Assembly: GCA_003504275.1 (NCBI GenBank) | Contig: DOAO01000014.1 | Coordinates: 8,889 to 72,888 of the forward strand | Reading direction: 5' to 3' | DNA: 64,000 bases | Origin: Patescibacteria group bacterium | GTDB taxonomy: Bacteria; Patescibacteriota; Minisyncoccia; Phycocordibacterales; UBA12445 | Shown here: piece after piece, positions 22,934-64,000 of the stretch | Position numbering within the stretch: position 1 is the first letter of the stretch | Layout: every line of letters starts with the position of its first letter | Translations under genes and position numbers: made by a program | The notes under the pieces: model-generated | What the model saw: the letters and a program-made list of their open reading frames with translations, nothing else | Databases searched by the model: none | Told to the model about the DNA's origin: nothing

Positions 22934-22939
22934 GCTATC

Positions 22940-26105: not shown

Positions 26106-26109
26106 ATAT

Positions 26110-49909: not shown

Positions 49910-50074
49910 TTGAAAAAGAATTATGAATTAAGAATTATGAGTTAAGAATACCAAAGCTAGGCTAATATTGCGAGTGGTTACAAAGTCTTGCTTTTTTAGA
50001 TATATTGATGTAGTATTTATCTCGCAGTAAATTTTTGGCGTAATTCTTTATTCATAATTCATTATTCTTAAAGT

Positions 50075-50344: not shown

Positions 50345-50352
50345 CAAATTTA

Positions 50353-50385
50353 AAAACACCTTATCAAACGATAAGGTGTTTTTTA
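50353..50385. terminator. bidirectional intrinsic terminator
   Basis: aacaccttatc-aaac-gataaggtgtt with flanking A-run and T-run. Confidence 0.7.
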
Positions 50386-50841
50386 TTTGGTAATCTCCCA
50401 GCTTATGTCTCTTTCATCCCGACTGATCTCTCTGAAACCTACGGATTTGTTTAATTTTATAACAGGCTCATTTCTAGGATCGGTAGAGGCCGTCATTCTC
50501 TTGAGGCCGAGTTCTTTGAATCCATAATCTATTAAATATTTTAGAGATATTTTTCCTATACCTTTACCGCGATAGTCATCTTCGCCAATCATAATAAATG
50601 CAACCGCTTCTTTATCTATGTCGGAGAGCCCCATGAAACCTATCGGTTTTTCATCGTCGAAAATTGTAAAGAATTTTTTGTAAGGATTTTGTTCGTATCT
50701 ATCATACCAAACGGTTTGCTCTTCAGTAGTCGTTTCGTGTTCTGGATTTTCAATAGCGTATTTGTTTGCTTCGCGATTGTTAAGCCACTTAACTCTAAGC
50801 GGTATTTCTTCTCTTGAGTGTGGTTTGAACGAAATTATCAT
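50383..50841 (-). CDS. GNAT-family N-acetyltransferase
   Basis: acetyl-CoA motif RGKGIGKISL; start trimmed to the Met at 50841 because the track's N-terminal extension translates across a tRNA gene. Confidence 0.6.
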   Translation of the reverse strand: MIISFKPHSREEIPLRVKWLNNREANKYAIENPEHETTTEEQTVWYDRYEQNPYKKFFTIFDDEKPIGFMGLSDIDKEAVAFIMIGEDDYRGKGIGKISLKYLIDYGFKELGLKRMTASTDPRNEPVIKLNKSVGFREISRDERDISWEITK

Positions 50842-50923
50842 TATTGAGAGCGTTGTGGTGTTTAGGGTAGGGAATCTCGCCCGAACACATTTTTTATATA
50901 AACTCTTGTTTAATATCCCTTCG

Positions 50924-50997
50924 GCAGGAATCGAACCTGCATCAGAAGCTCCGCAAGCTCCTATTCTATCCATTAAACTACGAAGGGACTTGGTTTT
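50924..50997 (-). tRNA. tRNA-Arg (anticodon GCG, probable)
   Basis: reverse complement TCCCTTCGTAGTTTAATGGATAGAATAGGAGCTTGCGGAGCTTCTGATGCAGGTTCGATTCCTGCCGAAGGGAT; perfect acceptor and T-arm, anticodon loop TTGCGGA; D-stem has one mismatch. Confidence 0.6.
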
Positions 50998-51044
50998 ACT
51001 ACACAATAGGATTCTCTCTTTTTCTATCTTGATCAAAAAATGTG

Positions 51045-51135
51045 AGTGGGCAAACCTACATCAGGAGATTATAAGTCTTCTGTTCCCCGCCCGACTGAAT
51101 GGCTTCAGCCGTTCGGGCGGGTATCCATTAAACTA
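51045..51135 (-). pseudogene. degenerate tRNA-like sequence with embedded GC-rich hairpin
   Basis: shares 5' half CTCGTAGTTTAATGGATA and TGATG.AGGTT with the adjacent tRNA-Arg but lacks a T-arm; carries the cccgcccgactgaatggcttcagccgttcgggcggg palindrome. Confidence 0.35.
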
Positions 51136-51189
51136 CGAGAGGTGTTTTGAAAATAGCACAAAAGGGGAAAAATAAAAAGTTTATTGTTT

Positions 51190-51327
51190 GTCTTTGCGAG
51201 TGAAACTAAGCCGTCTACAGGTCTGCCTGTCCGGTAGGCAGGTGTCGATGTGAATTCCATCGACCAACCCAGAGACCACTTCAAGTAAATCCTGGATTGC
51301 CACGGGCTTCGCCCTCGCAAAGACGGT
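51190..51327. repeat. composite palindromic element (TIR GTCTTTGCGAG...CTCGCAAAGAC enclosing module C and the ctggattgccacggg module)
   Basis: gtctttgcgagtgaaactaagccgtctacaggtctgcctgtccggtaggcaggtgtcgatgtgaattccatcgac...cctggattgccacgggcttcgccctcgcaaagacgg. Confidence 0.75.
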
Positions 51328-51368
51328 AGCGAATGGATGACGGAAATTAGGAAATATGTAGATTATGA

Positions 51369-51878
51369 TTAAAAGCCAATATACTCAGAAATAATATCCG
51401 ACATGGCCTTCTCGTGATATTCTTCTTGAATATATCTTGATAGATAATCTTTAACTAATTCCACATCAACATCTCCTAGTGGAATTATTATTTGTGGCAA
51501 AAAGGCGCGGTCTGATTTTATTGAGAGTTCGTTGATTTGAGTTATCTCTCCATCTGCTTCGTATATCCAAAAAGATTCAATTCTTCCATAAGGATAAATT
51601 GTGTTCTTAATGATTACTCCTCTCGGGGTTAACCTCACGCGGACATGACTAGGACCTTTTATTTTGAACATTATCATTGTGATTCCTGCCATGAGGGAGA
51701 ATGCTCCAAAAACAACGTTGTTATAATAAAAAGAAGTAGCAGAGGCGATTATCGCAATGAGTCCAACTGCCCAATACCAATCGTTGCTGACCGGCTTGTG
51801 CTCATACTCAAAAGTTTCCCATGATATTTCCGTGGTGCCTCTTATAGGATTTAAAATTTCTGTTTCATTATTATTCAT
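51369..51878 (-). CDS. membrane protein (two TM plus PH-like C-terminal domain?)
   Basis: 169 aa with two adjacent hydrophobic helices. Confidence 0.4.
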   Translation of the reverse strand: MNNNETEILNPIRGTTEISWETFEYEHKPVSNDWYWAVGLIAIIASATSFYYNNVVFGAFSLMAGITMIMFKIKGPSHVRVRLTPRGVIIKNTIYPYGRIESFWIYEADGEITQINELSIKSDRAFLPQIIIPLGDVDVELVKDYLSRYIQEEYHEKAMSDIISEYIGF

Positions 51879-52177
51879 CCCATTAGAAGCAGGTCGCGTT
51901 CGCGCCTACTAAAATTAATTTATTAAAAATATTGAGACCTTTTTTCATAATTAACCATACTTAAGAAAATTAACAGCGAACACGGCTTCTAGCGGGACAG
52001 GTTATTAAATTATAACATCCCATTAAAAGTTCCACAAAATTATGTGGTCTGTTTTTGTTTATCCGCGAAGCGCCTTCGGCTCCTGTAGTGAGTATGTTGT
52101 CTTTAATTTACAAACTTTTAACGGGACAGGCACCCCCTTTAACTTTTGTATCGTTTTTGCTAGTATCCTTAAATGTT

Positions 52178-52267
52178 GGAAGGGTGGCAGAGCGGTCGAT
52201 TGCACCAGTCTTGAAAACTGGAGTCTCCGCAAGGGGACCGTGAGTTCGAATCTCACCCCTTCCGCCA
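52178..52267 (+). tRNA. tRNA-Ser (anticodon TGA), CCA encoded
   Basis: GGAAGGGTGGCAGAGCGGTCGATTGCACCAGTCTTGAAAACTGGAGTCTCCGCAAGGGGACCGTGAGTTCGAATCTCACCCCTTCCGCCA; long variable arm, perfect acceptor. Confidence 0.9.
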
Positions 52268-52356
52268 AGACAATTTATTATCGGAGTCAACTCATTTGTC
52301 TATGACGAATGTGCGACCCGAGTGCCTAAGTTGGACGAGTTTAACCTATCATTAAT

Positions 52357-53025
52357 ATGAATTCCAGAATTCGTGAAGCAATATATAGCATAGGCGAAAG
52401 ACTAACAACAGATAGTTCATATTCAAAATATGATGATTTGGAATGTAATTTATCTGAGGGCATTATTCCAAGAGGATTAATGTATGAAGAGGATAATCGA
52501 AATGTTGATGCAGTAGGATGTGTTATGGTTGGCCTTAACCCAGGCAAGGCAACTAAAAAAGAGCAAGATTTTTTTAAATCCGAACCACTTTCTTACGAAA
52601 GATTTTTGTTGTATTGGAAAGAAAACGTACTTCAACATCCTTACTACAAACGACTTAGAAAACTTGCTGATGAGCTAGAGTTCGACGGTCCTATCCTATG
52701 GACTGAACTTGTGAAATGCCAAGGCAAAGAAAATGGACAATTGACCGTGCAGACAATTAGAGATGATATCAATAAATATCTTTTTCCCGAGTTAGAGAAT
52801 ATTCCTGCTAATTGGCCATTATTCGGAATTGGCAACCAAGCTTTTGAAATATTGAGTTATCGTTTCCCCGATAGATTAGTTTTAGGAATTCCGCATCCGA
52901 CAGGGTCATATGGACTATTTCCAAAATTATTTGAAGGTCAAAAAATAAGACAGGATATTTTTAACCATACCAAGAAGATTTTAACATCTAAAGAAAAAAT
53001 TGCCGTAAAATTAGGTAAGTTTTAA
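52357..53025 (+). CDS. hypothetical protein with faint UDG-superfamily-like motifs
   Basis: GLNPGKATKKEQ (resembles UDG motif A GxxPGxxE) and GIPHPTGSYG (resembles motif B HPSP) at appropriate spacing. Confidence 0.3.
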   Translation: MNSRIREAIYSIGERLTTDSSYSKYDDLECNLSEGIIPRGLMYEEDNRNVDAVGCVMVGLNPGKATKKEQDFFKSEPLSYERFLLYWKENVLQHPYYKRLRKLADELEFDGPILWTELVKCQGKENGQLTVQTIRDDINKYLFPELENIPANWPLFGIGNQAFEILSYRFPDRLVLGIPHPTGSYGLFPKLFEGQKIRQDIFNHTKKILTSKEKIAVKLGKF

Positions 53026-53076
53026 TTAGTATCGCTATAAAAATAATAAATAAAAACGACAACTTTGCTGTTGTTT

Positions 53077-54075
53077 TTATTTTGTCCAAAGAACCTCGTA
53101 TTTAAACCCTACATGTTTTTCAGATTCCTGTCTTCTGTCTTCTGGTACCGACACTACAATTCTTTTATCTCCTGCAAACGGCTCAGCATGCAGGTTGCAT
53201 AGATAAACCATCAATAGTTCAAAAATTGTTAACAAACTTAGAGTTGTTGATTCCATAAAGACAGCAATCTGCATTTTAGATAGATTATATTCCTTACCCT
53301 TGTACGATATGGAGGGTAGATCAATGTTGTTCGTAAGATTTAATTTATAATTTTCTACCGTAAAAACATCGTCCCGCAATTCACCGTATGGATGTTCTAT
53401 TTTGTTTCGTATTGTGCGAGTTTTTTCCGTAAATTTTTTAAATGTTTGAATGAAAATAGTAAAAGGATCATCATCGCCCAATTCGGTTTTGATTGTTTTA
53501 CACAAAAGTTCTTCCCACCCTTTCCCTTTAACGTCTGGATAAAATAAGTTGGTAATTTCCATGATTGATCTCATTGCATGATCGGTATTTGAGATGAACC
53601 CCTTTACCTTTTGTTCCAAGTTTGGAAGCGCTGGTATTTGAAGACTCTTTCCTTGCGAAGAGATACTAGAGGTTATGCTTTCTTCTTCAGCTATATATTC
53701 GTCCTTTAGTTTATCTAGCGCAGTAATTTCTCTCAAGAAAGAAAGTGAAATACTTATGCCTTTATTATGATCTACACTTTTGGGTAGGGTATGTTCTTTA
53801 AATAGAAAACTAGCTTGTTGAAATGTTCTGCCAACAAATTCATTATCCGAACCATATGGAAGTATGTGCTGTACATTGTGGTCTATATTTGGGTTTGTTC
53901 TCTGTGGGTCAACTGAATCAGCCATTAAAACCATGCGGATATTCTTTCTGGTAATACACATAAGTTGGTCATCTACTCCCACAAGAGCAGATAAGTTGTC
54001 GCCAACTTCTGATCCAACATTAAAAGCACCCCCTTGGGAACGGTATGCAAATGGATCGTTATTACCTGAGTTCAT
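53077..54075 (-). CDS. hypothetical protein (island cargo)
   Basis: 332-aa ORF co-oriented downstream of the recombinase. Confidence 0.4.
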   Translation of the reverse strand: MNSGNNDPFAYRSQGGAFNVGSEVGDNLSALVGVDDQLMCITRKNIRMVLMADSVDPQRTNPNIDHNVQHILPYGSDNEFVGRTFQQASFLFKEHTLPKSVDHNKGISISLSFLREITALDKLKDEYIAEEESITSSISSQGKSLQIPALPNLEQKVKGFISNTDHAMRSIMEITNLFYPDVKGKGWEELLCKTIKTELGDDDPFTIFIQTFKKFTEKTRTIRNKIEHPYGELRDDVFTVENYKLNLTNNIDLPSISYKGKEYNLSKMQIAVFMESTTLSLLTIFELLMVYLCNLHAEPFAGDKRIVVSVPEDRRQESEKHVGFKYEVLWTK

Positions 54076-54099
54076 AAACTTATTATAACAATTTTTTAT

Positions 54100-55422
54100 C
54101 TAATCCATGAAGGTTAATCCTTTATCTTTGTAAATTATTCTCGATCTTAGATTCGCCAGTAATTCTCTTTTTTCGCCAACCGTACCCTCTTTGAGGATAT
54201 ACTTGGCGAAATTTCTTATATCAGTATCCTGATTGTTTTTAATCTTTTCTGTTGCACCAAGCACTGATCTTTGGAAGATGTTAAATCTCGCAATTTCATC
54301 CTCCAGTTTCTGTCTCATACCCAACTCATTGATATTTACCTTGTCCAATATCTTGAGTAGTTCAGTTATCAAATCTTCTTCGCGTATATAATGATTCTTG
54401 CAGTTTCTATCTCTCGCTCTGCTACATGAATAGTAGATGTATTTAGCGTGCGTTCCATCCTTGAGCTGTTTCCACTTTTCCTCGGCAGATATTCCGCTTC
54501 CACAATATCCGCAAGTAAATAATTTAGTAAATGCGAATTCTCTATTTTCTCTTTGTATATTATCTCGTTTCAGTTGCGCCTGAGCTTTTTCAAATAGTTC
54601 TTGTGTAATTAATGGCTCGTGTTTCCCTTGATACCAATTACCGCTACCTTTCGGTGATTCAAATGTTCCGTAGTAAAAATGGCTTTCCAGTATCCGATAC
54701 ACACCAGCAAGTGTTAGTGGTTTGTTTCCTCTTGTGTAAAAATTGGCTTCAAATCGAAGCCAATTGTATATCTTTCTACCACTTAGTTTTTCGTATGCCA
54801 CTTTTTCAAATATCTTTTTAATCACTGGCGCTCTTTGCGGATCAACTATTACTTGGCATTTCTTATCCATGTGTTTTTGATTCAGGTATCCAAGCGGTGC
54901 TACGCCCGGCCATAATCCCATTTCAACTCTCGTTCGTAGTCCACGCTTCACGTTTACACCCCTGTTATCATTCTCAAGTTTTGCTTGTGATCCGAGAATC
55001 ATCAGCAAGAATTTTTCGTTTGGATTGTTTGAAAACTTTTGACCGAATGTTCTTATTTCTTGGAGAAGTCCTGCATCCATTAAGTCCACGATCTTGCCGA
55101 GGTCACCAGCATTTCTACTGATACGATCGGGTGCCCATGTGAGAATAGCGTTATACTTTTTGGCTCGTATTTCATCTACAATTTCGTTAAAGACTGGTCT
55201 TTGCCCAGTTTCCTTAGCTGAATGACTTTCTCGCTTCATACAAACTACCTCTAAACATTCTCGCTCGGCAAGCTGAAGCATCTCTTTTATCTGCGAATCT
55301 ATGGAAAGTATCTGTCTTTCCTCGGATTCTGTTGATTTACGGGCATATAGGCAATACCTGACTTTGACCGCTTGAGGCTGTATTTGGGGCACCTCATAAC
55401 CTTTTGGGGCTGTTATTTTCAT
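54100..55422 (-). CDS. large serine recombinase (resolvase/integrase family)
   Basis: N-terminal resolvase motif YARKSTESEERQILSIDSQ (catalytic Ser), recombinase domain, Cys-rich zinc ribbon (CGYCGS...CSRARDRNC). Confidence 0.8.
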   Translation of the reverse strand: MKITAPKGYEVPQIQPQAVKVRYCLYARKSTESEERQILSIDSQIKEMLQLAERECLEVVCMKRESHSAKETGQRPVFNEIVDEIRAKKYNAILTWAPDRISRNAGDLGKIVDLMDAGLLQEIRTFGQKFSNNPNEKFLLMILGSQAKLENDNRGVNVKRGLRTRVEMGLWPGVAPLGYLNQKHMDKKCQVIVDPQRAPVIKKIFEKVAYEKLSGRKIYNWLRFEANFYTRGNKPLTLAGVYRILESHFYYGTFESPKGSGNWYQGKHEPLITQELFEKAQAQLKRDNIQRENREFAFTKLFTCGYCGSGISAEEKWKQLKDGTHAKYIYYSCSRARDRNCKNHYIREEDLITELLKILDKVNINELGMRQKLEDEIARFNIFQRSVLGATEKIKNNQDTDIRNFAKYILKEGTVGEKRELLANLRSRIIYKDKGLTFMD

Positions 55423-55532
55423 ATATCTAATGAATGACGCAACTCGCCTCAGGAGTCCAGAGCGTCCCGAGTAGATAAGCTGTAGATAAGTAAATTACCC
55501 ATATTATACGGCTTAAGCTACTATACAGACCT

Positions 55533-57278
55533 ATGAAAACCTATGAACATTTGACATTATATTTGGAGTCTGATAGACTTGTATTAAACAATATGAGAAA
55601 AGACATACAAGAAAAACTAAAAGGAATGCTGGAGTTACTCTCTATCGGTCAGGTAGCAGAGATTTTTAGCATTCACCAAGACACTTTAAGAAACTGGGAG
55701 AAAGACGGCACCCTCGTTCCCCTTAGAGTTGGCCCACGCAAAGATCGCAAATATCGTCCGCAAGATATTCAAGCGATCGTGGACAAAATGGGTAGCAAAT
55801 TAACCCTGCCCCAACTTGAAGCTTTCCTTTGGAAGAGTGCAGATATTCTTCGAGGGAAAATTGATAGTTCGGATTATAAAAAATATATCTTCGGTCTTTT
55901 GTTTTATAAACGAATGAGTGATGTGTGGGATGAAGAATACGAATCAGTAATGAAAGGATATAACGATAAGATAATCGCTGGCGCCGACTATAATCACCGT
56001 TTTCAAGTTCCAAAGGATTGCAAATGGGCAGTTGTTACTGAACAAGCAGAAAGTATCGGTCAAAAGTTAAATGATATTTTTGAAAAACTCGCCAATGCCA
56101 ATAGTCCAAAGTTGGACAGAATCTTTGATGATCTTGATTTTTCAAATAGAGATCGTTTTCCAAATGAAACACTCCAAAGACTTATTAACCACTTTTCTCA
56201 ATATAATTTTGGTAATACCTATATCAGCTCCGATCTCTTGGGTGATGCTTACGAATATCTCATCAAACAATTCGCGGCAGATGCAGGGAAAAAAGGTGGG
56301 GAGTTCTACACGCCTCGTGAAGTTGAAAAAGTTATTATCGGAATTTTAAAACCCCACCAGAAAGATCATATATATGATCCAACTGCTGGATCAGGGGGCT
56401 TCCTGCTTGAAGCATATGATTACTTAAAACATAAATCTGGTGAAAAGATTGCCAAAACACTCTATCTTTATGGGCAAGAATTAAATATCAGTACTTTTGC
56501 CATCGCAAAAATTAATATGTTTTTACATGGTCTTGATAGTGCTGACATTCGCCGTGGCGACACACTCGCTAATCCGCAGTTTCTAACACAAAATGGCAAT
56601 CTACAAACATTCGACATCGCGGTCGCAAATCCTCCCTACTCAATTAAAGATTGGGAGTCAGAAATTTTCAGAACAAACAAATATGGACGACTTGAGGGAT
56701 ACGATATGCCTCCTGAAAAAAATGCGGATTACGCTTTTGTTTTGCATATCATTAAATCAATGAACGTAAACGGCAGGGCTGGTATTGTACTTCCTCATGG
56801 GGTTCTATTCCGAGGCGGTGCTGAGGGGCGTATTCGTGAGCAGATTCTTAAAAACGATCTTATTGAAGCCGTTATCGCTTTGCCAGCTAAACTTTTCTAT
56901 GGCACAGGCATTCCAGCCGCGGTTTTGATTCTTAATAAAAATAAACCAGAAAATAAGAAAAATAAGGTTTTGATTATTGATGCTGAGAAAGACTTCCTTG
57001 AGGGTAAAAATCAAAACTCTCTTAGGTCACAGGATATAAATAAAATTGTAAAAGCATATGATGTTTATTCTGATATCGAAAAATATGCACGGGTAGTTGA
57101 TATAAAAGAAATTACTGAGAATAACTATGATTTAAATATTAATCGATACATTGACACTTCTGAACAGGAAGAGGTAATCGATGTTAAATCTGCGTGGGAT
57201 GATTTAAAGAAACTAGAAAAAGAGCGTGAGACAATAAATAAAAAAGTCGACGGATTTCTTAAGGAATTAAATTATTAA
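55533..57278 (+). CDS. hsdM: type I restriction-modification N6-adenine DNA methyltransferase HsdM with N-terminal MerR/excisionase-like HTH extension
   Basis: HsdM_N pattern LEAFLWKSADILRGKID from residue ~86, SAM motif DPTAGSGGFL, catalytic NPPYS; residues 1-85 form an HTH (IGQVAEIFSIHQDTLRNWEKDGTL). Confidence 0.85.
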   Translation: MKTYEHLTLYLESDRLVLNNMRKDIQEKLKGMLELLSIGQVAEIFSIHQDTLRNWEKDGTLVPLRVGPRKDRKYRPQDIQAIVDKMGSKLTLPQLEAFLWKSADILRGKIDSSDYKKYIFGLLFYKRMSDVWDEEYESVMKGYNDKIIAGADYNHRFQVPKDCKWAVVTEQAESIGQKLNDIFEKLANANSPKLDRIFDDLDFSNRDRFPNETLQRLINHFSQYNFGNTYISSDLLGDAYEYLIKQFAADAGKKGGEFYTPREVEKVIIGILKPHQKDHIYDPTAGSGGFLLEAYDYLKHKSGEKIAKTLYLYGQELNISTFAIAKINMFLHGLDSADIRRGDTLANPQFLTQNGNLQTFDIAVANPPYSIKDWESEIFRTNKYGRLEGYDMPPEKNADYAFVLHIIKSMNVNGRAGIVLPHGVLFRGGAEGRIREQILKNDLIEAVIALPAKLFYGTGIPAAVLILNKNKPENKKNKVLIIDAEKDFLEGKNQNSLRSQDINKIVKAYDVYSDIEKYARVVDIKEITENNYDLNINRYIDTSEQEEVIDVKSAWDDLKKLEKERETINKKVDGFLKELNY

Positions 57279-57279
57279 T

Positions 57280-58437
57280 ATGACCATATCTCAAAATACA
57301 ATTCCAAAAGGATGGTCTGTAAAACAAATTGGTGATCTGTTGAATTTTGAACGGCCTGATAATTATATTGTCGAGAGCGAAAGCTATAATCAAAAAAACA
57401 ATATTCCAGTTCTCACGGCTAACAAATCTTTTATTTTAGGTTATACAAACGAGGATTTTGGTATATACAAAAATATTCCAGCTATCATTTTTGATGATTT
57501 TACTACTGATAGTAAGTTCGTGGATTTTCCATTTAAAGTTAAGTCTTCTGCTATTAAAATTTTGAAATCTAAAGAAGAGAATTATGATTTAAGATTTGTT
57601 TATGAATTGATGAAGTCGATTAATTTTCAAATCGCTAATCATAAACGACACTATATCTCTCAGTATCAATATTTAGAAGTAAAAATGCCACCGATTGCGG
57701 AACAAAAAAAGATCGCAGAAATTTTGTCTACCGTTGATGAAGAAATTCATAAGACCAGTGAAATAATTGCTCAAACTGAAAATTTAAAAAATGGGATTTC
57801 GAAACACCTTTTCACAAGAGGTGTTGGACACGATAAATTTCAGAAGACGAAGATCGGAGACATTCCAAAAGAATGGAATTTTTTGAAAATGAAAGATATT
57901 TGTACGGTAAGCCAAGGATTACAGATCCCTATCTCTAAAAGATTTAAGGATCCAGGAGAAAACAGATATAAATATATTACTCTTAAAAATATCAAAGAAG
58001 ATACTTATGAATACATAGAATCACCCAAAGAAAGCGTGATTTGTAAAAAAGATGATGTTCTCATGACAAGAACTGGTAATACTGGTGTAGTTGTTACTGA
58101 TGTGGAAGGTGTCTTTCATAATAATTTTTTTCTTATTGATTTTGACCGAAAGAGAATAGATAGAAACTACCTAGTTTATTATTTGAGAGGCGAGCCAATC
58201 AAAAAACTTTTGTTGGAGCGAGCAGGCACAACAACTATACCAGACCTTAATCACGGCGCTTTTTACGGAATACATTTTTTATTACCAGATTTAACCGAAC
58301 AAAGAAAGATTTCAGACATTTTATCCTCAATCGACAACAAAATACTGTTTAATAAAGAAATGAGAGCCAAACTTACTGATCTTAAAAAGGGATTAATGCA
58401 GGATTTGTTAAGTGGAAACAAAAGAGTAAAGGTATGA
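57280..58437 (+). CDS. hsdS: type I R-M specificity subunit HsdS
   Basis: two TRDs separated by conserved MPPIAEQKKIAEIL and C-terminal LLPDLTEQRKISDIL repeats. Confidence 0.75.
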   Translation: MTISQNTIPKGWSVKQIGDLLNFERPDNYIVESESYNQKNNIPVLTANKSFILGYTNEDFGIYKNIPAIIFDDFTTDSKFVDFPFKVKSSAIKILKSKEENYDLRFVYELMKSINFQIANHKRHYISQYQYLEVKMPPIAEQKKIAEILSTVDEEIHKTSEIIAQTENLKNGISKHLFTRGVGHDKFQKTKIGDIPKEWNFLKMKDICTVSQGLQIPISKRFKDPGENRYKYITLKNIKEDTYEYIESPKESVICKKDDVLMTRTGNTGVVVTDVEGVFHNNFFLIDFDRKRIDRNYLVYYLRGEPIKKLLLERAGTTTIPDLNHGAFYGIHFLLPDLTEQRKISDILSSIDNKILFNKEMRAKLTDLKKGLMQDLLSGNKRVKV

Positions 58438-59240
58438 GCCAAATTCAACAAACAACAGAAGACTTGCAAAAACAACTTGATTCACAGTTGGAGCTTTTAA
58501 GTGTACTGTCTGATTTATATGATCAAGGACAAACCGTGGTTGCAAAATCAATCGCATCCTCAATAAGGGTTCTATTACATAAAACTCAGCAGTCTCACTC
58601 CTTACTGTCCCAACTTAAGTTAGAAGATACGGATTTTTTTGATTCATGCCTTGTTGATGGCATCCCTGAAGATTATGAGAAAGTAAAAAGGTTAGGTAGC
58701 TACGCCGGACTTTTTGGAATTGGTATCAGCAGTGAGGAAACCACTTATGTGCCATATCTGGATGATATCCCTGGCAAGAACCCAAAGCACGCTAAGTACG
58801 AGGATTATTGGAATAGAATTGTTTTTTACGACAAAAATAACGGTACTTTTACACGTAAAGAGATTGTTCTTGCCGTAGCGAATAAAGATGGTGGTTCGCA
58901 TGTCGATCCATTTTTGGATAAGAAGTATGTTGATTTAGCTAAAAATAATTCTCTTGGATGGGAAGGGTCGGCAAACAACCAACAACATAAACCGCCAGAA
59001 GGTGCCGAGCTGGCGGCAATGAGACAAATAGCCCACGAAGTTTTACGTACTTTTGTAAAAAATTATCCTCAAAAGAAAATGTCTTACGGAGGTAAAAAAC
59101 CATTTGCTGTAATGGCTGGAACAGGACCAATAATTGGTATTAAAAAAAGAAACCCGAAAGATTTAGTACCAAAGGTTGGCAGAAACGATAAATGCCCGTG
59201 CGGAAGTGAAATAAAGTATAAAAAGTGTCATGGTAAATAA
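58434..59240 (+). CDS. SEC-C-motif protein embedded in the type I R-M operon
   Basis: 268 aa; ATGA overlap with hsdS stop; N-terminal coiled coil; C-terminal CPCGSEIKYKKCHG zinc-binding SEC-C motif. Confidence 0.5.
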   Translation: MSQIQQTTEDLQKQLDSQLELLSVLSDLYDQGQTVVAKSIASSIRVLLHKTQQSHSLLSQLKLEDTDFFDSCLVDGIPEDYEKVKRLGSYAGLFGIGISSEETTYVPYLDDIPGKNPKHAKYEDYWNRIVFYDKNNGTFTRKEIVLAVANKDGGSHVDPFLDKKYVDLAKNNSLGWEGSANNQQHKPPEGAELAAMRQIAHEVLRTFVKNYPQKKMSYGGKKPFAVMAGTGPIIGIKKRNPKDLVPKVGRNDKCPCGSEIKYKKCHGK

Positions 59241-59241
59241 T

Positions 59242-59952
59242 ATGAAATTTAACGAACAAATTATTTATAAGCAATACCCCTTAAGGAGTAATTTTGATTT
59301 TCAACATGCCACTCCATTTGATTGGGCGACCATTGGTACTTTTTCAGCCATTATTGTTGCTTTATTGATAGCATTATTTCAGGATCGGATTAGAGAATTG
59401 TGGAATCGGGCAGAACTAGAAATAAAGATTTCTATGACTCCTCCTGATTGTCATAAAATAGGACTTCATGGACAGAACGGAAATTTTATTCAGAATTGTA
59501 TTTATTTACGAGCACGAGTTACAAACGTTGGTAGAAAACCTGCGGAAAATACAGAGATTATGATTTCTAAATTATGGGAAATAGATGAATTAGGAAATGA
59601 AAAAATTGTGGAAACTTTTTTGCCAATGAATTTAGCATGGAGCCATTACAGAACTAACAATATTCGTATTCCTGCCGGCGTATTTAGACATTGTGACATT
59701 GGTGATATTCGAGATCTTATTCACCACACAGAAACACAAATGAGATTTGATATTATTGTGCAACCATACAGAGTTGACGGAGATAAATATCCAAACATAG
59801 TTAGTTCTGGAAAATATAAATTTGAGCTCATCACATCGGCAGATAATGCCATTTCCAGTCAATCTTTATGGGAACTAGAATTTGATAAAGTGTGGGTGGA
59901 AGATGAAAAAGAAATGTTGGAAAAACATATACACATAAAGAAAATAATATGA
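59242..59952 (+). CDS. single-TM membrane protein embedded in the type I R-M operon
   Basis: track ORF 59230..59952; likely start at 59242 (MKFNEQ, identical initiation context to hsdR); TM helix TIGTFSAIIVALLIALF; TGA overlaps the hsdR ATG. Confidence 0.45.
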   Translation: MKFNEQIIYKQYPLRSNFDFQHATPFDWATIGTFSAIIVALLIALFQDRIRELWNRAELEIKISMTPPDCHKIGLHGQNGNFIQNCIYLRARVTNVGRKPAENTEIMISKLWEIDELGNEKIVETFLPMNLAWSHYRTNNIRIPAGVFRHCDIGDIRDLIHHTETQMRFDIIVQPYRVDGDKYPNIVSSGKYKFELITSADNAISSQSLWELEFDKVWVEDEKEMLEKHIHIKKII

Positions 59953-62861
59953 AATTTAACGAACAATATACAATTGAATACCACATCATAAAATTCATAC
60001 GAGAAAAACTCGGTTATGAATATATTCCTGCGGAAGAATTTTCTAAACTCCGCTCTTTTGAAACCGAGTATGTTATTACTTCCCATCTTTTAGAAGCGGT
60101 AAAGAAAATCAACAATATTGACGATGTTGTCGCGCAAAGCATTGTAAGAGAAGTTAAAAAGTCAGACACGAACGAAGCGTTTCTACTTGCCATGCGAAAC
60201 GGTATCAATTTGAAAGATCCAAACACCGGCAATTTTCGTGACTATAAGATAGTTGATTTTGATAATCCAGAAAACAATCACTTCGTTATTACTAATCAAT
60301 TCTATTTTGAAGGAGTAACCGAAAATATCCGACCCGATGTATTAATTTTTCTTAATGGTTTACCGATTTGCGATATTGAAGCCAAAAGCCCCACTGCTTC
60401 CAGTAGTGTTAACTTTGAAAACGCGATTGACCAACTAAAGCGATACGAGAAAGTCGCACCAAAGCTTTTCTTGCCTAACTGCCTTAATATCGCTACCGAT
60501 GGCCTCAAAACCGTTTATGGAGCGACTTATTCCCCAAAGCAGTACTTCCTTGCTTGGCGCGAAGACCCACAGGTAGAAAAGAAAGTTTTTGAAGAAGAAC
60601 TTGATTCCACGCTTTTCTTTTTGCTTGATCAAAAACAGATTCTTGATCTTATTAAAAACTTTATTGTCTTTGAGAAAAAGAAAGACGGGATTACTAAAAA
60701 GATTACCAGATATCAGCAATTTTACGCGGCCAATAAAATCGTTGCTCGTGTTCAAGACGGCGAGAGAAAGAAGGGTTTGATTTGGCATACACAAGGGTCC
60801 GGCAAAACACTCACGATGTTTTTCACGGCGTGGAAGCTTCGCTATAACCCTGAATTGAAAAATCCCAAGGTATTTATTTTGATTGACCGTATTGATCTTG
60901 ATGATCAAGTTTACGAAGAATTTGAAAGCTGGGGTGGACAAAACCTCGTCAGAGTGGAGTCACGCAAAGACCTTGAGAAGAAAATCAAAGGAGCCGACCG
61001 AGGTATCTTTATTTCAACTATTCAGAAATTCAGCGAGTTGGAAGAGATAGAAAATATCGATGGTAACGTTATTGTGCTTTCTGACGAAGCCCACCGAGAC
61101 AACGAGGGTGTTTCAGCAATTAAAATGCGTAATGCTTTTAAGGATGCTTTCTTTTTTGGATTTACTGGAACACCAATTGATAAGCTAACTCTCAATACTC
61201 ACAGAAACTTCGGCGAAGAAGGAGAACGTTATCTTGATTATTATTCCATTCAGCAAGCCATTGATGATGGCGCTACTTTGCCAGTTACTTATGAAGCCCG
61301 TCTTTCCAAATTCTTTATTGATGAGGAAAAAGTGGATCAACAATTTAATGAACTTACTGTCGACTTGAATGATAAGCAAAAAGAATTGCTCACTAAAAAA
61401 TACGGCAAAAAGGAGGCTCTGGTTAAGTTAGACAAAAGGATGGAAGCGGTTGCTCAAGATATTATTGAGCATTACAAACTTTACGTTTTGCCAAATGGAT
61501 TTAAAGCTCAGGTCGTTTGTTATGACCGCGAAGCCACAGCAAAATACAAACAACTTTTTGATAAGTTAGTCCCAGCTGAATGGTCTGAGGTTGTCTATTC
61601 CCCAGGAGATCCCAATAGCGAAAGTGATGATTTAAAGAAATACAATACCAATAAACAGAAGCGAGAGAAAATAATTGAACAATTCAAGGATCCAAGTCAT
61701 CCACTTAAATTTTTACTTGTCTGCGACATGCTTTTGACTGGCTTTGACGCTCCAGTTGAACAGGTAATGTATTTGGACAAACCACTTCGTGATCACAACC
61801 TACTTCAAGCAATCGCCCGTACAAACCGAGTGTTTCCAAACAAAGGATGCGGAAAGATTATTGATTACTACGGCGTGACTAAAAACCTTTACGACGCACT
61901 TAATTTTGACGAGAGTGTGGTTGATAGCGCCATGGTGGATATCAACCGTCTCAAAGAAGAATTTTCAAAAGTTATCGGCGAAATAATGGAATTGTTTGTA
62001 GGAGTAAATATTGAAGATCCATCCATAGACAACTTGCGCCGATGCCTGAAGATATTTATTGAAAATCAAAGTAAACAGCAATATTTCAAAGATAAATACA
62101 GCCGACTCAAAATGTTGTTTGAGATTCTTTCGCCTGATCCATTCTTAATGGAGTACCTCCGCAAGTTTGAATGGATTACCAGTTTTTATTTGGCATTCGT
62201 AAAAGAATTCCAAATTGATGATGTGGATGCTTTTTCACTTGCCGAATACGGAGAGAAAATAAAAAGCTTGATTCAACAGAAGATTGACTACGAGGGCATC
62301 ACTAAAAACTTCCGAGAATTAAATATCCACGATTTAGCTACCCTAAACAAATTGGATAAACTTCCCGAAGAAGAGAAAGCTCTTAATCTTGAAAAAATGT
62401 TAAAGCGTGAGATTTCAATTAACATTGATACTCATCCGGCATTCAAAAAATTCAGCGAGCGACTTATTGCTATTCGTGTTGAGTTTGAAAAACATCAGAT
62501 TGATTTGGCGGAAAGAATAAAACGCTACTACGAACTTCTAAACGATATCAAAACAAAGACAGAAGAAGCAAAGGAGTTGGGTTACACCCTCCGCGAATAT
62601 GGCCTGTTTGTAATCTCCGATGAGTTTATTAGCGAATCTGACAAGGATGTTGTTAAGGAGTTTGTAAAAGAAATGGCCGCACGACTTGAAGATGTTCTTG
62701 ATGAGAATTGGCAAGATTCATCAAAAAGAGAAGAGTTTCTCAAAGAAGCAAAACGAACTCTGCAAGAATTGATTCTTAAGGATTACAAAGACAAAATAAA
62801 AGTTTCTGATTTCCACAAATATCTCAATAGGCTAGTGGATGTTGTAATAAAGCGATTTTAA
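59949..62861 (+). CDS. hsdR: type I restriction enzyme R subunit HsdR
   Basis: helicase motif I GSGKT, DEAH box LSDEAHRD, motif III TGTP, motif VI QAIARTNR. Confidence 0.85.
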   Translation: MKFNEQYTIEYHIIKFIREKLGYEYIPAEEFSKLRSFETEYVITSHLLEAVKKINNIDDVVAQSIVREVKKSDTNEAFLLAMRNGINLKDPNTGNFRDYKIVDFDNPENNHFVITNQFYFEGVTENIRPDVLIFLNGLPICDIEAKSPTASSSVNFENAIDQLKRYEKVAPKLFLPNCLNIATDGLKTVYGATYSPKQYFLAWREDPQVEKKVFEEELDSTLFFLLDQKQILDLIKNFIVFEKKKDGITKKITRYQQFYAANKIVARVQDGERKKGLIWHTQGSGKTLTMFFTAWKLRYNPELKNPKVFILIDRIDLDDQVYEEFESWGGQNLVRVESRKDLEKKIKGADRGIFISTIQKFSELEEIENIDGNVIVLSDEAHRDNEGVSAIKMRNAFKDAFFFGFTGTPIDKLTLNTHRNFGEEGERYLDYYSIQQAIDDGATLPVTYEARLSKFFIDEEKVDQQFNELTVDLNDKQKELLTKKYGKKEALVKLDKRMEAVAQDIIEHYKLYVLPNGFKAQVVCYDREATAKYKQLFDKLVPAEWSEVVYSPGDPNSESDDLKKYNTNKQKREKIIEQFKDPSHPLKFLLVCDMLLTGFDAPVEQVMYLDKPLRDHNLLQAIARTNRVFPNKGCGKIIDYYGVTKNLYDALNFDESVVDSAMVDINRLKEEFSKVIGEIMELFVGVNIEDPSIDNLRRCLKIFIENQSKQQYFKDKYSRLKMLFEILSPDPFLMEYLRKFEWITSFYLAFVKEFQIDDVDAFSLAEYGEKIKSLIQQKIDYEGITKNFRELNIHDLATLNKLDKLPEEEKALNLEKMLKREISINIDTHPAFKKFSERLIAIRVEFEKHQIDLAERIKRYYELLNDIKTKTEEAKELGYTLREYGLFVISDEFISESDKDVVKEFVKEMAARLEDVLDENWQDSSKREEFLKEAKRTLQELILKDYKDKIKVSDFHKYLNRLVDVVIKRF

Positions 62862-62863
62862 TT

Positions 62864-63433
62864 ATGAAGAAAAAAATCGAGCTACACAAAAAGAAAGTCG
62901 AATACACCCTCAAGGTGAGCAAGCGAGCCAGGCGGATGAGACTGGCTATCTATTGTGATGGCAATTTTGTGGTTACTGCTCCGCGAAATATGAGCGATAA
63001 TATCATCGAGCAATTCATAATTAGAAAATCGCAGTGGATACTTGATAAGTTGGATTATTTCAAAAGCATTTCTGGGCAAGTATTCGCTAAAGGCACTAAA
63101 AAGGATTATACGGAATACAAAGACCATGCAATGGCTTTAGCTGAAAAGCGAATTGAATATTTTAATAAAACTTACGGTTTTAGATTCAACAAGATAAATA
63201 TAAAAAACCAGAAAACTCGTTGGGGTAGCTGTTCAAGAAAAGGTAATCTGAATTTTAATTACAAAATCGCTCTACTCCCCGAGAAATTGGCTGACTATAT
63301 TATAGTTCACGAGCTATGTCACCTAAAAGAATTTAACCACTCACAAAAATTTTGGAATCTGGTTGCCAAAATGATGCCTGATTATCTTGAGATCAGGAAT
63401 GAGCTGAAAAGGAGCGGAATTAAGTCTGTCTAA
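62864..63433 (+). CDS. DUF45/YgjP-family zinc metallohydrolase
   Basis: HELCHLKEFNH HExxH motif; common accessory of type I R-M loci. Confidence 0.65.
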   Translation: MKKKIELHKKKVEYTLKVSKRARRMRLAIYCDGNFVVTAPRNMSDNIIEQFIIRKSQWILDKLDYFKSISGQVFAKGTKKDYTEYKDHAMALAEKRIEYFNKTYGFRFNKINIKNQKTRWGSCSRKGNLNFNYKIALLPEKLADYIIVHELCHLKEFNHSQKFWNLVAKMMPDYLEIRNELKRSGIKSV

Positions 63434-63462
63434 AAACAGGAAAAAATGATAAAATAGTAAAT

Positions 63463-64000
63463 ATGGAGAAGCATTTATTGAACAGTAAAGTTCAAAAATT
63501 AAAGGCTATTGATTTCTTCTGCTCAGGTGGTGGGATGAGTTTTGGTATGCAACAAGCTGGAATTGATGTTATTGCTGGAATAGATTTTGATCCAGACTGC
63601 AAAGAAACATATGAATCTAATATAAAAGGGGCAAAATACATACTCGCGGATGTTTCTAAACTAAAAGAAGCAGACCTTTCGAAAGAAATCGACATTAAAA
63701 AGAATGATGATAATTTAATTTTGATCGGATGTAGTCCTTGCCAGTATTGGACGATTATTCGTACAAGTAAAAATAAATCAGAAAAATCAAAGGATTTACT
63801 CCACGAATTTCATCGCTTTGTAAAATACTATAATCCTGGATATGTCGTTGTTGAAAATGTGCCAGGTATTTTAAATAAACAAAAAGAAAGTGGACTCAAT
63901 CTGTTTGTAGACGATTTGAAAAAAAGAGGATACGCTGTCCATTACAAGGTTGTACACCTTAATGAGTATGGTGTTCCAGAAACAAGGAAAAGATTTTCTT
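63463..64000 (+). CDS. DNA (cytosine-5)-methyltransferase (5' part; continues beyond the window)
   Basis: motif I FFCSGGGMSFG, motif IV GCSPCQYWT, motif VI ENVPG; not in the ORF track because it is truncated by the window end. Confidence 0.75.
   Translation, partial: MEKHLLNSKVQKLKAIDFFCSGGGMSFGMQQAGIDVIAGIDFDPDCKETYESNIKGAKYILADVSKLKEADLSKEIDIKKNDDNLILIGCSPCQYWTIIRTSKNKSEKSKDLLHEFHRFVKYYNPGYVVVENVPGILNKQKESGLNLFVDDLKKRGYAVHYKVVHLNEYGVPETRKRFS

What the first reader, a model, noticed from the sequence alone, without database searches (positions are those of the whole stretch)
52178..64000. Defence/mobile island downstream of tRNA-Ser: serine recombinase, type I R-M, DUF45, second C5 methyltransferase
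Directly 3' of tRNA-Ser(TGA) lie two unknown ORFs, a large serine recombinase (54100-55422), the divergently oriented HTH-hsdM-hsdS-X-Y-hsdR-DUF45 operon, and a further C5 MTase that runs off the window. tRNA-adjacent placement plus a recombinase and stacked defence genes is typical of an integrative element or defence island. The island boundary is not inside the window. The 332-aa ORF downstream of the recombinase and the 222-aa ORF with UDG-like GxxPG/HPxG blocks are candidate additional cargo (anti-restriction or DNA-modification-related?).
Basis: partly seen in the sequence, partly recalled or inferred. Interest (0 to 1): 0.55.

Follow-up and report, generated by a model that had tools for sequence, protein, structure and literature searches.

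The report
tRNA-Ser-targeting serine-integrase defence element
The region is the left half of a roughly 22-kb mobile element that a large serine recombinase inserted at the end of a tRNA-Ser gene in a groundwater Parcubacteria (CPR) genome. It carries stacked anti-phage systems and has recently moved between very distantly related hosts.

Summary
tRNA-Ser(UGA) lies at 52178-52267. It is followed by a UDG-fold ORF, an unknown 332-aa ORF and a large serine recombinase (LSR). Next comes a tight MerR-HsdM/HsdS/268-aa/240-aa/HsdR/DUF45 operon, then a C5 methyltransferase cut by the window end.

The source contig continues with a BbrUII/HgiDII-type restriction enzyme, an SNase, a TerS-like HTH protein, a ParB-methyltransferase, an S24 repressor, PDC-S16 and an E2-type CBASS.

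This LSR is 83-100% identical in more than 120 protein clusters across Parcubacteria. In every context I read, a tRNA gene lies beyond its 3' end on the opposite strand. Both ends of the element were defined by comparison. The left junction (attL) is tRNA-Ser ...CCGC followed by a conserved arm at 52270-52331. The right junction (attR), outside the window, is a 22-nt arm ...GTACTTAACCCGACTACACCGC followed by a different flank in each of about 20 genomes.

Element proteins are 82-98% identical between two hosts whose core proteins are only 32-56% identical. None of 80 relatives shares the cargo.

Relatives of the element are full phages with a large terminase. This copy has no structural genes, so it is a phage-derived island or possibly a satellite.

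No long tRNA repeat exists and none is expected, because the integrase is a serine type.

The parts
52178..52267 (+). tRNA-Ser(UGA). This is the host half (B) of attL. Its acceptor 3' strand pairs with its own 5' strand, so the gene is intact.
   Evidence: ARAGORN; Rfam tRNA 59 bits. It occupies the same position next to the 169-aa ORF and tRNA-Arg(gcg) in relatives.
52262..52331 (+). attL junction. CCGC (52262-52265) is followed by the element-derived P' arm, CAAGACAATTTATTATCGGAGTCAAC...GTGCGACCCGAGTGCCTAAGT.
   Evidence: 62 nt are 95% identical in L094. The core (A)ATTTAKTATCGG is present after every tRNA-Ser that adjoins an LSR of at least 70% identity. It is absent after 19 tRNA-Ser(tga) genes of relatives with no such LSR nearby.
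52314..52326 (+). Subterminal 13-nt motif CGACCCGAGTGCC. A variant recurs about 90 nt inside the right end of related elements.
   Evidence: Its role is unknown.
52357..53025 (+). 222-aa UDG-superfamily protein. It is cargo in the slot between attL and the integrase.
   Evidence: No homologue lies at this position in other elements.
53077..54075 (-). 332-aa ORF of unknown function. It starts 24 nt downstream of the integrase gene on the same strand and is variable cargo.
   Evidence: No Pfam, PHROG, NCBIfam, PADLOC or PDB match. The single-sequence AlphaFold model is unusable (pLDDT 41).
54100..55422 (-). Large serine recombinase, 440 aa; the element's integrase. Its 3' end faces the tRNA.
   Evidence: Pfam; phrog_95 integrase, E 2e-60; CcrB-like in NCBIfam. 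More than 120 clusters are 83-100% identical. It is always paired with a tRNA.
55533..57278 (+). HsdM with an N-terminal MerR-type HTH.
57280..58437 (+). HsdS, the type I specificity subunit.
58434..59240 (+). 268-aa ORF embedded in the type I operon. It matches phrog_7805 (function unknown) and has a C-terminal SEC-C zinc motif.
   Evidence: The gene is split in L094 and absent from L106.
59230..59952 (+). 240-aa ORF embedded in the type I operon. It has a predicted N-terminal transmembrane helix and belongs to a family of about 917 representative clusters of unknown function.
   Evidence: No library match.
59235..59259 (+). First copy of a perfect 25-nt direct repeat (AAATAATATGAAATTTAACGAACAA). 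It supplies the start of the 240-aa ORF.
59942..59966 (+). Second copy of the 25-nt repeat; it forms the start of hsdR.
   Evidence: Both copies are also present in L094, with one mismatch.
59949..62861 (+). HsdR.
62864..63433 (+). YgjP/DUF45 metallopeptidase-like protein. It is always placed directly after hsdR in this module.
   Evidence: The same placement is seen in L088, L094, L102, L106 and L137.
63463..64000 (+). 5' part of a C5 DNA methyltransferase (360 aa in full). It is the methylase of a type II restriction-modification pair whose restriction enzyme lies just beyond the window.
   Evidence: The partner is a BbrUII/HgiDII-family restriction enzyme (NF050001 E 7e-69, which is below NCBI's curated cut-off; PADLOC REase_II 9e-42).

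Best explanation
Window 52262-64000 is the integrase-proximal half of a roughly 22-kb integrative mobile element. It sits in a Parcubacteria (Paceibacteria, CPR) genome; the source record is named GW2011_GWF2_38_76.

**Integration (inferred from junctions).** A 440-aa large serine recombinase inserted the element at the 3' end of tRNA-Ser(UGA). Strand exchange took place within a few bases of the ...CCGC end of the tRNA. This left an intact tRNA joined to the element's P' arm (attL, 52262-52331). The element's P arm ...GTACTTAACCCGACTACACCGC is joined to host DNA about 10 kb beyond the window (attR, inferred from close relatives).

**Backbone (shown).** The backbone is phage-derived: integrase, SNase, a TerS-like HTH protein, a ParB-N6/N4 methyltransferase, an S24/LexA-like repressor and DUF2188. 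Full-size relatives have a large terminase next to the TerS-like gene. This copy has no terminase or structural genes in the 21 kb that I read.

**Cargo slots (shown by comparison).**
- Slot 1, between the tRNA and the integrase: the UDG-fold protein and the 332-aa ORF.
- Slot 2, between the integrase and the SNase: the type I restriction-modification operon with two embedded ORFs and DUF45, then the C5-methyltransferase/GHKL type II pair.
- Slot 3, between the repressor and the right end: CBASS with an HNH-SAVED effector, a CD-NTase and an E2.

**What it does (inferred).** The element spreads horizontally among very divergent CPR hosts, using conserved tRNA genes as landing sites, and supplies them with ready-made anti-phage defence.
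For: **Source and downstream content**
- The source contig and the genes beyond the window.

**Integrase and tRNA pairing**
- The integrase has LSR domains.
- More than 120 clusters are 83-100% identical, under Parcubacteria, Nomurabacteria, Colwellbacteria and Pacebacteria names. For comparison, the Mur ligase is 80% identical in the closest GTDB representative genome and 56% or less in the next.
- In the window, L008, L016, L094, L095, L099, L140 and 12 IMG/VR loci, the first tRNA beyond the LSR 3' end is always on the opposite strand: 19 of 19.
- Close homologues pair with tRNA-Ser. More distant clades pair with tRNA-Arg, Asp, Glu, Gln, Asn or Trp, sometimes only 116-146 nt away.

**Left end**
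- The P' arm is conserved after the tRNA only where the LSR is present.

**Right end**
- L089-L093 are identical up to ...ACACCGC and then diverge into two flanks, one 49% GC and one 33% GC.
- A metagenome scan for the 22-mer gave 21 loci with conserved upstream sequence and about 20 different downstream flanks.
- L140 holds a complete 14.2-kb element, from the P arm to tRNA-Ser(cga).
- The flank after the P arm in L154 and L138 (CTTCGCTTCGCCGTAGC...) is the same sequence that directly follows an unoccupied tRNA-Ser in L151 and L155. This reconstructs attB.

**Horizontal transfer**
- Between the window and L094, the core proteins S20, RuvA and Fpg are 56, 38 and 32% identical.
- HsdR, SerRec and DUF45 are 98, 94 and 94% identical, with 88% nucleotide identity over 5.6 kb.

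**Modularity**
- The slot beside the integrase is empty in L148.
- It holds HigB + M78/HTH + Beta_protein in L140, and a zinc-ribbon/HNH ORF with a weak Cas12f1-type TNB match + an 882-aa methyltransferase in L089.
- It holds the type I system without the type II pair in L137.
- It holds type III-like genes or a diversity-generating retroelement (DGR) in L095 and L099.

**Phage link**
- 33 IMG/VR contigs carry homologues.
- TerL (phrog_38, E 1e-69 to 1e-80) follows ParB-MT + the TerS-like gene in L099, L107, L122 and L128. L099 also has an endolysin.

**Composition**
- GC content equals that of the core, but tetranucleotide distance is 0.17-0.25 against 0.134 ± 0.021 for core windows.
Against: - The right end of this particular copy was not read. 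L001 stops inside the E2 gene. Its position (window-equivalent about 73.9-74.4 kb) is extrapolated from L088, L135, L137 and L140, which are 81-92% identical at nucleotide level.
- No empty site and no excised circle were seen in this population. All 10 contigs carrying the identical flanking 169-aa protein have the island wherever they extend far enough.
- The two P|P' junctions that I found (L139, L109) look like tandem arrays or scars rather than clean attP sites.
- No recombination directionality factor was identified.
- The crossover is placed only to within about 6 nt, and recombinase activity is untested.
- The TerS-like assignment is weak (E 2e-4).
Confidence: 0.82

Rival explanations
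1. Decayed, immobile prophage remnant. A temperate phage once integrated here and lost its terminase and structural genes. The remainder is now a fixed defence island in this lineage, and the recombinase is a relic.
For: - No TerL, portal, capsid or tail genes occur in the 21 kb that I read.
- Full-size relatives do have TerL.
- No empty site or circle was seen in the population.
- Recombinase-less mini-elements and remnants of tRNA 3' ends show that decay happens at these loci.
Against: - The same short backbone, without TerL, recurs with intact ends in many genomes and with different cargo (L088, L089, L137, L140, L148).
- Identical copies sit in two different flanks.
- The element is 88-98% identical between hosts with 32-56% core identity.
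- The integrase ORF is intact and under strong conservation.
Confidence: 0.12
2. Phage satellite. The short elements are parasites of the full-size phages of the same family. They keep the integrase, att sites, repressor, ParB-methyltransferase and a TerS-like protein so as to be packaged by a helper phage, and they pay their host with defence cargo.
For: - The elements share the integrase, the tRNA target, the ParB-MT and the TerS-like gene with TerL-bearing phages, but lack TerL and structural genes.
- Their size, 9-22 kb, is well below the contig lengths of 24-56 kb seen for related IMG/VR records.
Against: - No replication or primase module, capsid-remodelling gene or packaging site was recognised.
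- The TerS call is weak.
- No helper phage, and no co-occurrence with one, has been demonstrated.
- No packaged form was found in IMG/VR with the P arm.
Confidence: 0.15
3. Static chromosomal defence island whose serine recombinase is a regulatory invertase, for example for phase variation of the type I system. The tRNA adjacency would be coincidental.
For: - Serine invertases do occur next to defence genes (abstract of PMC12529663, listed).
- The recombinase is divergently transcribed from hsdM.
Against: - There is only one hsdS and no inverted hsdS fragments or inverted repeats.
- The enzyme has the full large-serine-recombinase architecture, not that of a small invertase.
- It is linked to a tRNA in 19 of 19 contexts whatever the cargo, including elements with no restriction-modification system.
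Confidence: 0.02

Closest known systems
Staphylococcal cassette chromosome elements (SCCmec and related) moved by the CcrA/CcrB/CcrC large serine recombinases
   Same: - An LSR inserts a cargo-carrying cassette at the 3' end of one conserved housekeeping gene without destroying it.
- The att sites share only a short core.
- Cargo regions are highly variable.
- Tandem or composite arrays, and recombinase-less pseudo-elements bounded by att-like ends, occur at the same site. Compare L109 and L139 for arrays and L136, L138, L149, L151, L154 and L155 for mini-elements.
- CcrB is the best NCBIfam match of this recombinase (E 6e-34, far below the family cut-off).
   Different: - The target is a tRNA gene, not rlmH.
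- There is one recombinase gene, not a pair.
- The backbone is phage-derived (ParB-MT, TerS-like protein, S24 repressor).
- The cargo is anti-phage defence, not antibiotic resistance.
- The hosts are CPR bacteria.
- Sequence identity to Ccr proteins is low, so it is not a member of that family.
Serine-integrase temperate phages (phiC31, Bxb1, A118, TP901-1 and similar)
   Same: - The domain architecture is Resolvase + Recombinase + zinc ribbon.
- The integrase gene lies next to one attachment junction.
- Identity between the att sites is short.
- Relatives of this element are TerL-bearing phages.
   Different: - Phages with serine integrases are described as usually integrating within ORFs, whereas tRNA targets are the hallmark of tyrosine integrases (PMC9303363).
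- This family is consistently paired with tRNA 3' ends.
- The best identity to any GenBank phage record is only 24-27%.
tRNA-linked genomic islands and prophages with tyrosine integrases; defence hotspots of P2/P4-like elements and PICI satellites (the latter from my own knowledge)
   Same: - The position is 3' of a tRNA and the tRNA is kept intact.
- Presence among relatives is variable.
- Defence systems are concentrated in discrete cargo slots next to the integrase.
   Different: - The integrase is a serine recombinase, not a tyrosine recombinase.
- No 15-45-bp direct repeat of the tRNA end exists; only about CCGC(C) is shared.
Brig1 and other antiviral DNA glycosylases of the UDG superfamily (relevant to the 222-aa ORF only)
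   Same: - The protein has a UDG fold.
- The S. tokodaii family-4 UDG, which was the best structural match of Brig1 in the paper, is also among the top matches here (PMC11078745).
- It lies among defence genes on a mobile element.
   Different: I did not test sequence relationship to Brig1. Substrate and activity are unknown, and it could equally be a repair or phage-replication enzyme.

Membership tests
Large serine recombinase / serine integrase | N-terminal resolvase catalytic domain, followed by a recombinase domain and a zinc-ribbon domain | tested here: met
   PF00239 (E 6e-17), PF07508 (E 9e-14) and PF13408 (E 7e-10), in that order. phrog_95 integrase, E 2e-60.
Large serine recombinase / serine integrase | The element is bounded by attL and attR that share only a short core, and integration is site-specific | tested here: met
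   attL has tRNA...CCGC followed by the P' arm. attR has the P arm ...CCGC followed by a variable host flank in about 20 genomes. The attB reconstructed from occupied sites matches unoccupied ones. The right end of this particular copy is extrapolated, not read.
Large serine recombinase / serine integrase | Catalysis of attP x attB recombination, with excision that depends on a directionality factor | not testable with these tools
tRNA-integrated genomic island or prophage (classical, tyrosine-integrase type) | Direct repeat of the tRNA 3' end (about 15-45 bp) at the far boundary | tested here: not met
   No such repeat exists in 50000-64000. In complete relatives the two ends share only CCGC(C). 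The integrase is not a tyrosine recombinase.
tRNA-integrated genomic island or prophage (classical, tyrosine-integrase type) | Insertion directly 3' of an intact tRNA, variable among relatives | tested here: met
Type I restriction-modification system | hsdM, hsdS and hsdR all present in one operon | tested here: met
   Pfam and PADLOC MTase_I (2e-143), Specificity_I (1e-54) and REase_I (6e-135). Two extra ORFs lie between hsdS and hsdR.
Complete temperate prophage | Large terminase, portal, capsid and tail genes | tested here: not met
   None is present among the 21 genes from 52357 to the end of L001. Relatives have TerL. The last 0.5-1 kb of the element was not read.
Phage satellite (PICI-like) | Integrase + repressor + replication module + packaging-hijack genes, no structural genes, and dependence on a helper phage | tested here: inconclusive
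   An integrase and an S24 repressor are present. TerS-like similarity is weak (E 2e-4). No replication module was recognised. Helper dependence is not testable.
CBASS (outside the window, same element) | CD-NTase plus a cyclic-nucleotide-sensing effector | tested here: met
   PADLOC Cyclase PDLC00803 (3e-71), HNH-SAVED effector PDLC00746 (2e-168) and E2 PDLC00872 (1e-71). The E2 score was obtained on the L089 homologue, because L001 is cut inside this gene.
Uracil-DNA glycosylase superfamily (222-aa ORF) | UDG alpha/beta fold with motif A and motif B loops | tested here: met
   pLDDT 95.4. Foldseek finds 1ui0, 4zbx and 1vk2 at E 6e-6 to 2e-4, with TM-scores of only 0.46-0.59. 28 of 45 homologues hit PF03167. 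G59, N61, P62, G63 and H180 are invariant. The ORF itself is below the Pfam threshold. Its activity is untested.

The most novel reading that the evidence does not exclude
This is a large-serine-recombinase family that uses tRNA 3' ends as attB. Different clades are retargeted to at least seven tRNA identities: Ser, Arg, Asp, Glu, Gln, Asn and Trp. In CPR bacteria it would run an SCC-like cassette system for defence genes. In that system, full phages, 9-22-kb phage-derived islands or satellites, and 0.45-3-kb recombinase-less cassettes all share the same P and P' ends. All would be integrated, stacked and exchanged at tRNA-Ser by the same enzyme acting in trans.
Probability: 0.3. Interest if true: 0.75.

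Novelty: new variant of a known kind. Interest (0 to 1): 0.6.

Why it matters
CPR/Patescibacteria have tiny genomes and rarely carry CRISPR. How they acquire and exchange anti-phage defence is poorly known. Here one element family with a near-identical integrase is spread across hosts whose core proteins are only about 30-55% identical. It delivers type I and type II restriction-modification, CBASS, toxin-antitoxin genes, diversity-generating retroelements (DGRs) and a UDG-fold protein into defined slots.

Mechanistically, the element pairs a serine integrase with tRNA-gene targets. The literature I read treats tRNA targeting as the tyrosine-integrase habit (PMC9303363). In four searches of the held paper library I found no description of such a family.

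Serine integrases with natural landing sites in conserved tRNA genes, and with clades retargeted to different tRNAs, would also be of practical interest as broad-host-range integration tools.

Tried and rejected
- **tRNA 3'-end repeat.** Searching for a direct repeat of the tRNA-Ser 3' end, or of the P' arm, inside the window and L001 found nothing. This is explained by the serine-integrase mechanism.
- **Rfam.** A scan of 51900-52500 found only the tRNA.
- **Walking to the right end.** I could not reach the right end of the source contig. The right end therefore comes from relatives.
- **P arm in IMG/VR.** No matches.
- **Free attP.** The two P|P' junctions that I found (L139, L109) have contexts pointing to tandem arrays or scars, so I do not claim excision.
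- **Empty site.** A look-up of the identical flanking 169-aa protein showed only island-bearing contigs.
- **T-arm mimic.** I considered that the P arm might be a conserved T-arm-like hairpin. I dropped the idea because the 5' strand of the putative stem is not conserved among loci that share the 22-mer.
- **GC content.** It does not discriminate (35.8% against 36.3%). Only tetranucleotide usage does, and modestly.
- **Promoter and terminator scan.** Uninformative.
- **Unknown ORFs.** The 332-aa ORF gave no hit in any library, and its single-sequence AlphaFold model failed (pLDDT 41). PDB sequence searches for the four unknown ORFs were uninformative apart from the SEC-C tail.
- **HtrA::240-aa junction (L002, L003).** I could not decide between a real variant and an assembly artefact.


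Full report
**1. What is in the window**

ARAGORN places tRNA-Ser(tga) at 52178-52267 on the + strand.

Pfam and PADLOC give the following:
- 54100-55422(-): a large serine recombinase (Resolvase + Recombinase + Zn_ribbon_recom).
- 55533-57278: a MerR-HTH::HsdM fusion.
- 57280-58437: HsdS.
- 59949-62861: HsdR.
- 62864-63433: YgjP/DUF45.
- From 63463: the first 179 codons of a C5 methyltransferase.

Two ORFs sit inside the type I operon. One is 268 aa, matching phrog_7805 (function unknown) and carrying a C-terminal SEC-C zinc motif. The other is 240 aa. It is a predicted membrane protein from a family of about 917 representative clusters, with no match in any library.

The 222-aa ORF belongs to the UDG superfamily:
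- 28 of 45 aligned homologues hit PF03167.
- The model built on an alignment has pLDDT 95.4.
- Its best PDB matches are family-4 uracil-DNA glycosylases.

The 332-aa ORF stays unknown.

**2. Source and continuation**

Exact-protein look-ups show that the window comes from a 102-kb groundwater (Rifle) metagenome contig. The same sequence is deposited as Parcubacteria group bacterium GW2011_GWF2_38_76, LBVI01000003.1.

Ten kilobases beyond DUF45 were readable as L001. They hold, in order:
- the complete C5 methyltransferase;
- a GHKL-ATPase/Ymh protein that is a BbrUII/HgiDII-type type II restriction enzyme;
- a membrane-anchored SNase;
- a 220-aa HTH protein with weak similarity to small terminases;
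- a ParB-N6/N4 methyltransferase;
- an S24/LexA-like repressor;
- DUF2188 (PADLOC candidate PDC-S16);
- a CBASS made of an HNH-SAVED effector, a CD-NTase and an E2.

**3. Core or accessory**

The left flank is ordinary core: PolA, holA, a Clp-type AAA ATPase, SpoU, Fpg, Mur ligase, RuvA, S20 and tRNA-Arg.

A scan of GTDB species representatives with the Mur ligase returned 80 Patescibacteria loci. The closest is 80% identical and the next about 56%. Many keep tRNA-Arg(gcg), the 169-aa ORF and tRNA-Ser(tga) in the same neighbourhood.

None of the island proteins is found there, with one exception: homologues of the recombinase in L008, L016, L041 and L015. In L008 and L016 the recombinase's 3' end faces a tRNA (Ser(tga), Arg(tct)); in L016 methyltransferase and DUF262/HNH genes follow on its other side, and L008 ends inside the recombinase.

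**4. The recombinase family**

The 440-aa protein has more than 120 cluster representatives at 83-100% identity and at least 8000 hits at E < 1e-20. Their source names span Parcubacteria, Nomurabacteria, Colwellbacteria and Pacebacteria. It is thus far more conserved than the core genes.

Every context that I read has tRNA-Ser(tga) 0.7-3.9 kb beyond the recombinase's 3' end, on the opposite strand. One to three unrelated ORFs lie in between. The host genes beyond the tRNA differ from genome to genome.

IMG/VR holds 33 contigs with homologues at 43-87% identity. In 12 of them, the first tRNA downstream is again on the opposite strand. The tRNA is Ser for the closer homologues. For more distant ones it is Asp, Glu, Trp, Asn or Gln, and it is only 128-146 nt away in three cases. 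L016 adds tRNA-Arg(tct) at 118 nt.

In total the orientation holds in 19 of 19 contexts.

Against GenBank phage records, the best identity is only 24-27%.

**5. The two ends**

*Left end.* The 62 nt after the tRNA (52270-52331) are 95% identical in L094. Their core, (A)ATTTAKTATCGG, follows every tRNA-Ser that adjoins a close recombinase homologue. It follows none of the 19 tRNA-Ser(tga) genes in relatives that lack a close recombinase homologue nearby. The acceptor 3' strands co-vary with their own 5' strands, so the exchange point lies after ...CCGC.

*Right end.*
- Five Logan contigs carrying one identical CD-NTase are identical through a 219-aa ORF plus 128 nt, ending ...GGGTACTTAACCCGACTACACCGC. 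They then split into two unrelated flanks.
- A single scan of JGI metagenomes for the last 22 nt returned 21 loci. Upstream sequence is conserved and about 20 different sequences follow.
- L140 contains a whole 14.2-kb element, from this arm to tRNA-Ser(cga) followed by the P' arm.
- The flank after the arm in L154 and L138 (CTTCGCTTCGCCGTAGC...) is the sequence that directly follows a tRNA-Ser in L151 and L155. This reconstructs the unoccupied site.

The two junctions share only CCGC(C). That fits a serine integrase (PMC9303363) and explains why there is no tRNA-end repeat.

For the window's own copy, the right end is extrapolated from L088 and L135. L088 is 86-90% identical to L001 at nucleotide level and L135 is 92% identical. 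The estimate is about 73.9-74.4 kb in window coordinates, giving an element of about 22 kb.

**6. Mobility**

Between the window's genome and that of L094, the core proteins are distant: S20, RuvA and Fpg are 56%, 38% and 32% identical.

The element proteins are close:
- HsdR 98%.
- SerRec and DUF45 94% each.
- The 268-aa and 240-aa ORFs 87% and 82%.
- 88% nucleotide identity over 5.6 kb.

Both copies lie beside tRNA-Ser(tga).

GC content does not differ from the core. Tetranucleotide usage does, modestly.

Within this population I saw no empty site and no clean attP. The two P|P' junctions (L139, L109) look like tandem arrays or scars.

**7. Architecture**

Comparison of L088, L089-L093, L094, L137, L140 and L148 shows a conserved backbone: integrase, SNase, TerS-like HTH protein, ParB-methyltransferase, S24 repressor and DUF2188.

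Around this backbone there are three variable slots. The slot beside the integrase is the most variable:
- It is empty in L148.
- It holds HigB + M78/HTH + Beta_protein in L140.
- It holds a zinc-ribbon/HNH ORF with a weak Cas12f1-type TNB match + an 882-aa methyltransferase in L089.
- It holds the type I system + DUF45 in L137.
- It holds type I + DUF45 + the type II pair in the window, L088 and L094.

In L099, L107, L122 and L128, a large terminase (phrog_38, E 1e-69 to 1e-80) follows ParB-MT and the TerS-like gene. L099 also has an endolysin and a DGR. The family therefore includes real phages.

The window's element has no terminase or structural genes. It is a phage-derived island. Whether it is a satellite remains open.

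**8. Comparison with known systems**

In its working, the element most resembles SCC elements. A serine recombinase places variable cargo at the 3' end of a conserved gene. Composite arrays and recombinase-less pseudo-elements occur at the same site. Compare the 0.45-3-kb mini-elements bounded by tRNA-Ser+P' and the P arm in L136, L138, L149, L151, L154 and L155.

It is not a member of the Ccr families: the NCBIfam scores are far below their cut-offs. It is also not a classical tyrosine-integrase tRNA island.

The 222-aa UDG-fold protein in a cargo slot recalls the antiviral glycosylase Brig1 (PMC11078745). This is a lead only.

**9. Verdict**

The new points are:
- a serine integrase with a tRNA target;
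- the defined P and P' ends;
- the cargo-slot architecture;
- very recent spread of the element across deeply divergent CPR hosts.

In four searches of the held library I found no paper describing this.

I rate it a new variant of a known kind, with interest 0.6.

Noticed in passing
window 59235-59259 and 59942-59966: A perfect 25-nt direct repeat brackets the 240-aa ORF. As a result, this ORF and hsdR share the same ribosome-binding region and their first six codons (MKFNEQ). Both copies are also present in L094, with one mismatch, so the duplication is old. In L106, hsdS abuts hsdR with neither embedded ORF. It looks like the footprint of a gene insertion that copied the hsdR start.
   Followed up: partly
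L002 1-98 and L003 1-462, joined to window 59241: Two short contigs from other assemblies are 100% identical to window 59241-64000. To the left of that point they carry the protease domain of an HtrA/DegP-like gene, fused in frame exactly at the 18-mer ATGAAATTTAACGAACAA. The HtrA piece is not in the window. The 240-aa family shows no such fusions among its 150 best representatives. In the same ANAN16-1 assembly, scaffold_2178 (L158) breaks about 45 nt before the repeat. I could not decide whether this is a real minority rearrangement or an assembly artefact.
   Followed up: partly
window 52314-52326; right ends of L089, L151, L152 and L155: The 13-nt motif CGACCCGAGTGCC lies 48 nt inside the left end. 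A variant lies about 90 nt inside the right end, in direct orientation. The P arm itself contains the related GGGTACTTAAC. These may be sites for an accessory factor.
   Followed up: partly
L136, L138, L149, L151, L154, L155: These are recombinase-less mini-elements of 0.45-3 kb. Each is bounded by a tRNA-Ser (gga, cga, tga or gct) and the P arm, and carries one to a few small ORFs (transmembrane proteins, an Xre HTH, a protein I read by eye as GIY-YIG-like). The P' arm after the tRNA is clear in L138 and L149, degenerate in L136 and L154, and absent in L151 and L155. They may be deletion scars or cassettes mobilised in trans.
   Followed up: partly
L109 position 7340 (- strand) with L111; L139 731-810 in P-arm orientation (reverse complement of the locus): A P arm is directly followed by a P'-like arm. 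The IMG/VR contig 3300000970_000154 carries two recombinase copies. L139 has a 39-aa remnant of the recombinase C-terminus next to the junction. Both point to tandem accretion at tRNA-Ser.
   Followed up: partly
L088 11884-12005: Beyond the right junction there are two inverted remnants of a tRNA-Ser 3' end and a 15-nt repeat (AATGACGAAATCCGA). The contig ends inside the repeat.
   Followed up: no
L095-L097, L099, L122: Diversity-generating retroelement modules (bAvd + reverse transcriptase) lie immediately beside the same recombinase in other elements of the family.
   Followed up: no
L089 and L091, beyond position 12361 of L089: The host flank is 49% GC while the element is 34% GC. The identical element lies in a 33% GC flank in L090, L092 and L093. 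Either the host range is wide or one of the joins is chimeric.
   Followed up: no
window about 20000-27500: This is a second compositional outlier in the window (GC 0.30-0.33; tetranucleotide distance 0.166-0.188 against a core mean of 0.134). I did not examine it.
   Followed up: no
L094 6771-7559: The homologue of the 268-aa SEC-C ORF is split into 178-aa and 67-aa pieces in L094, although hsdR next to it is 98% identical. The embedded ORF therefore appears dispensable for the type I system.
   Followed up: no
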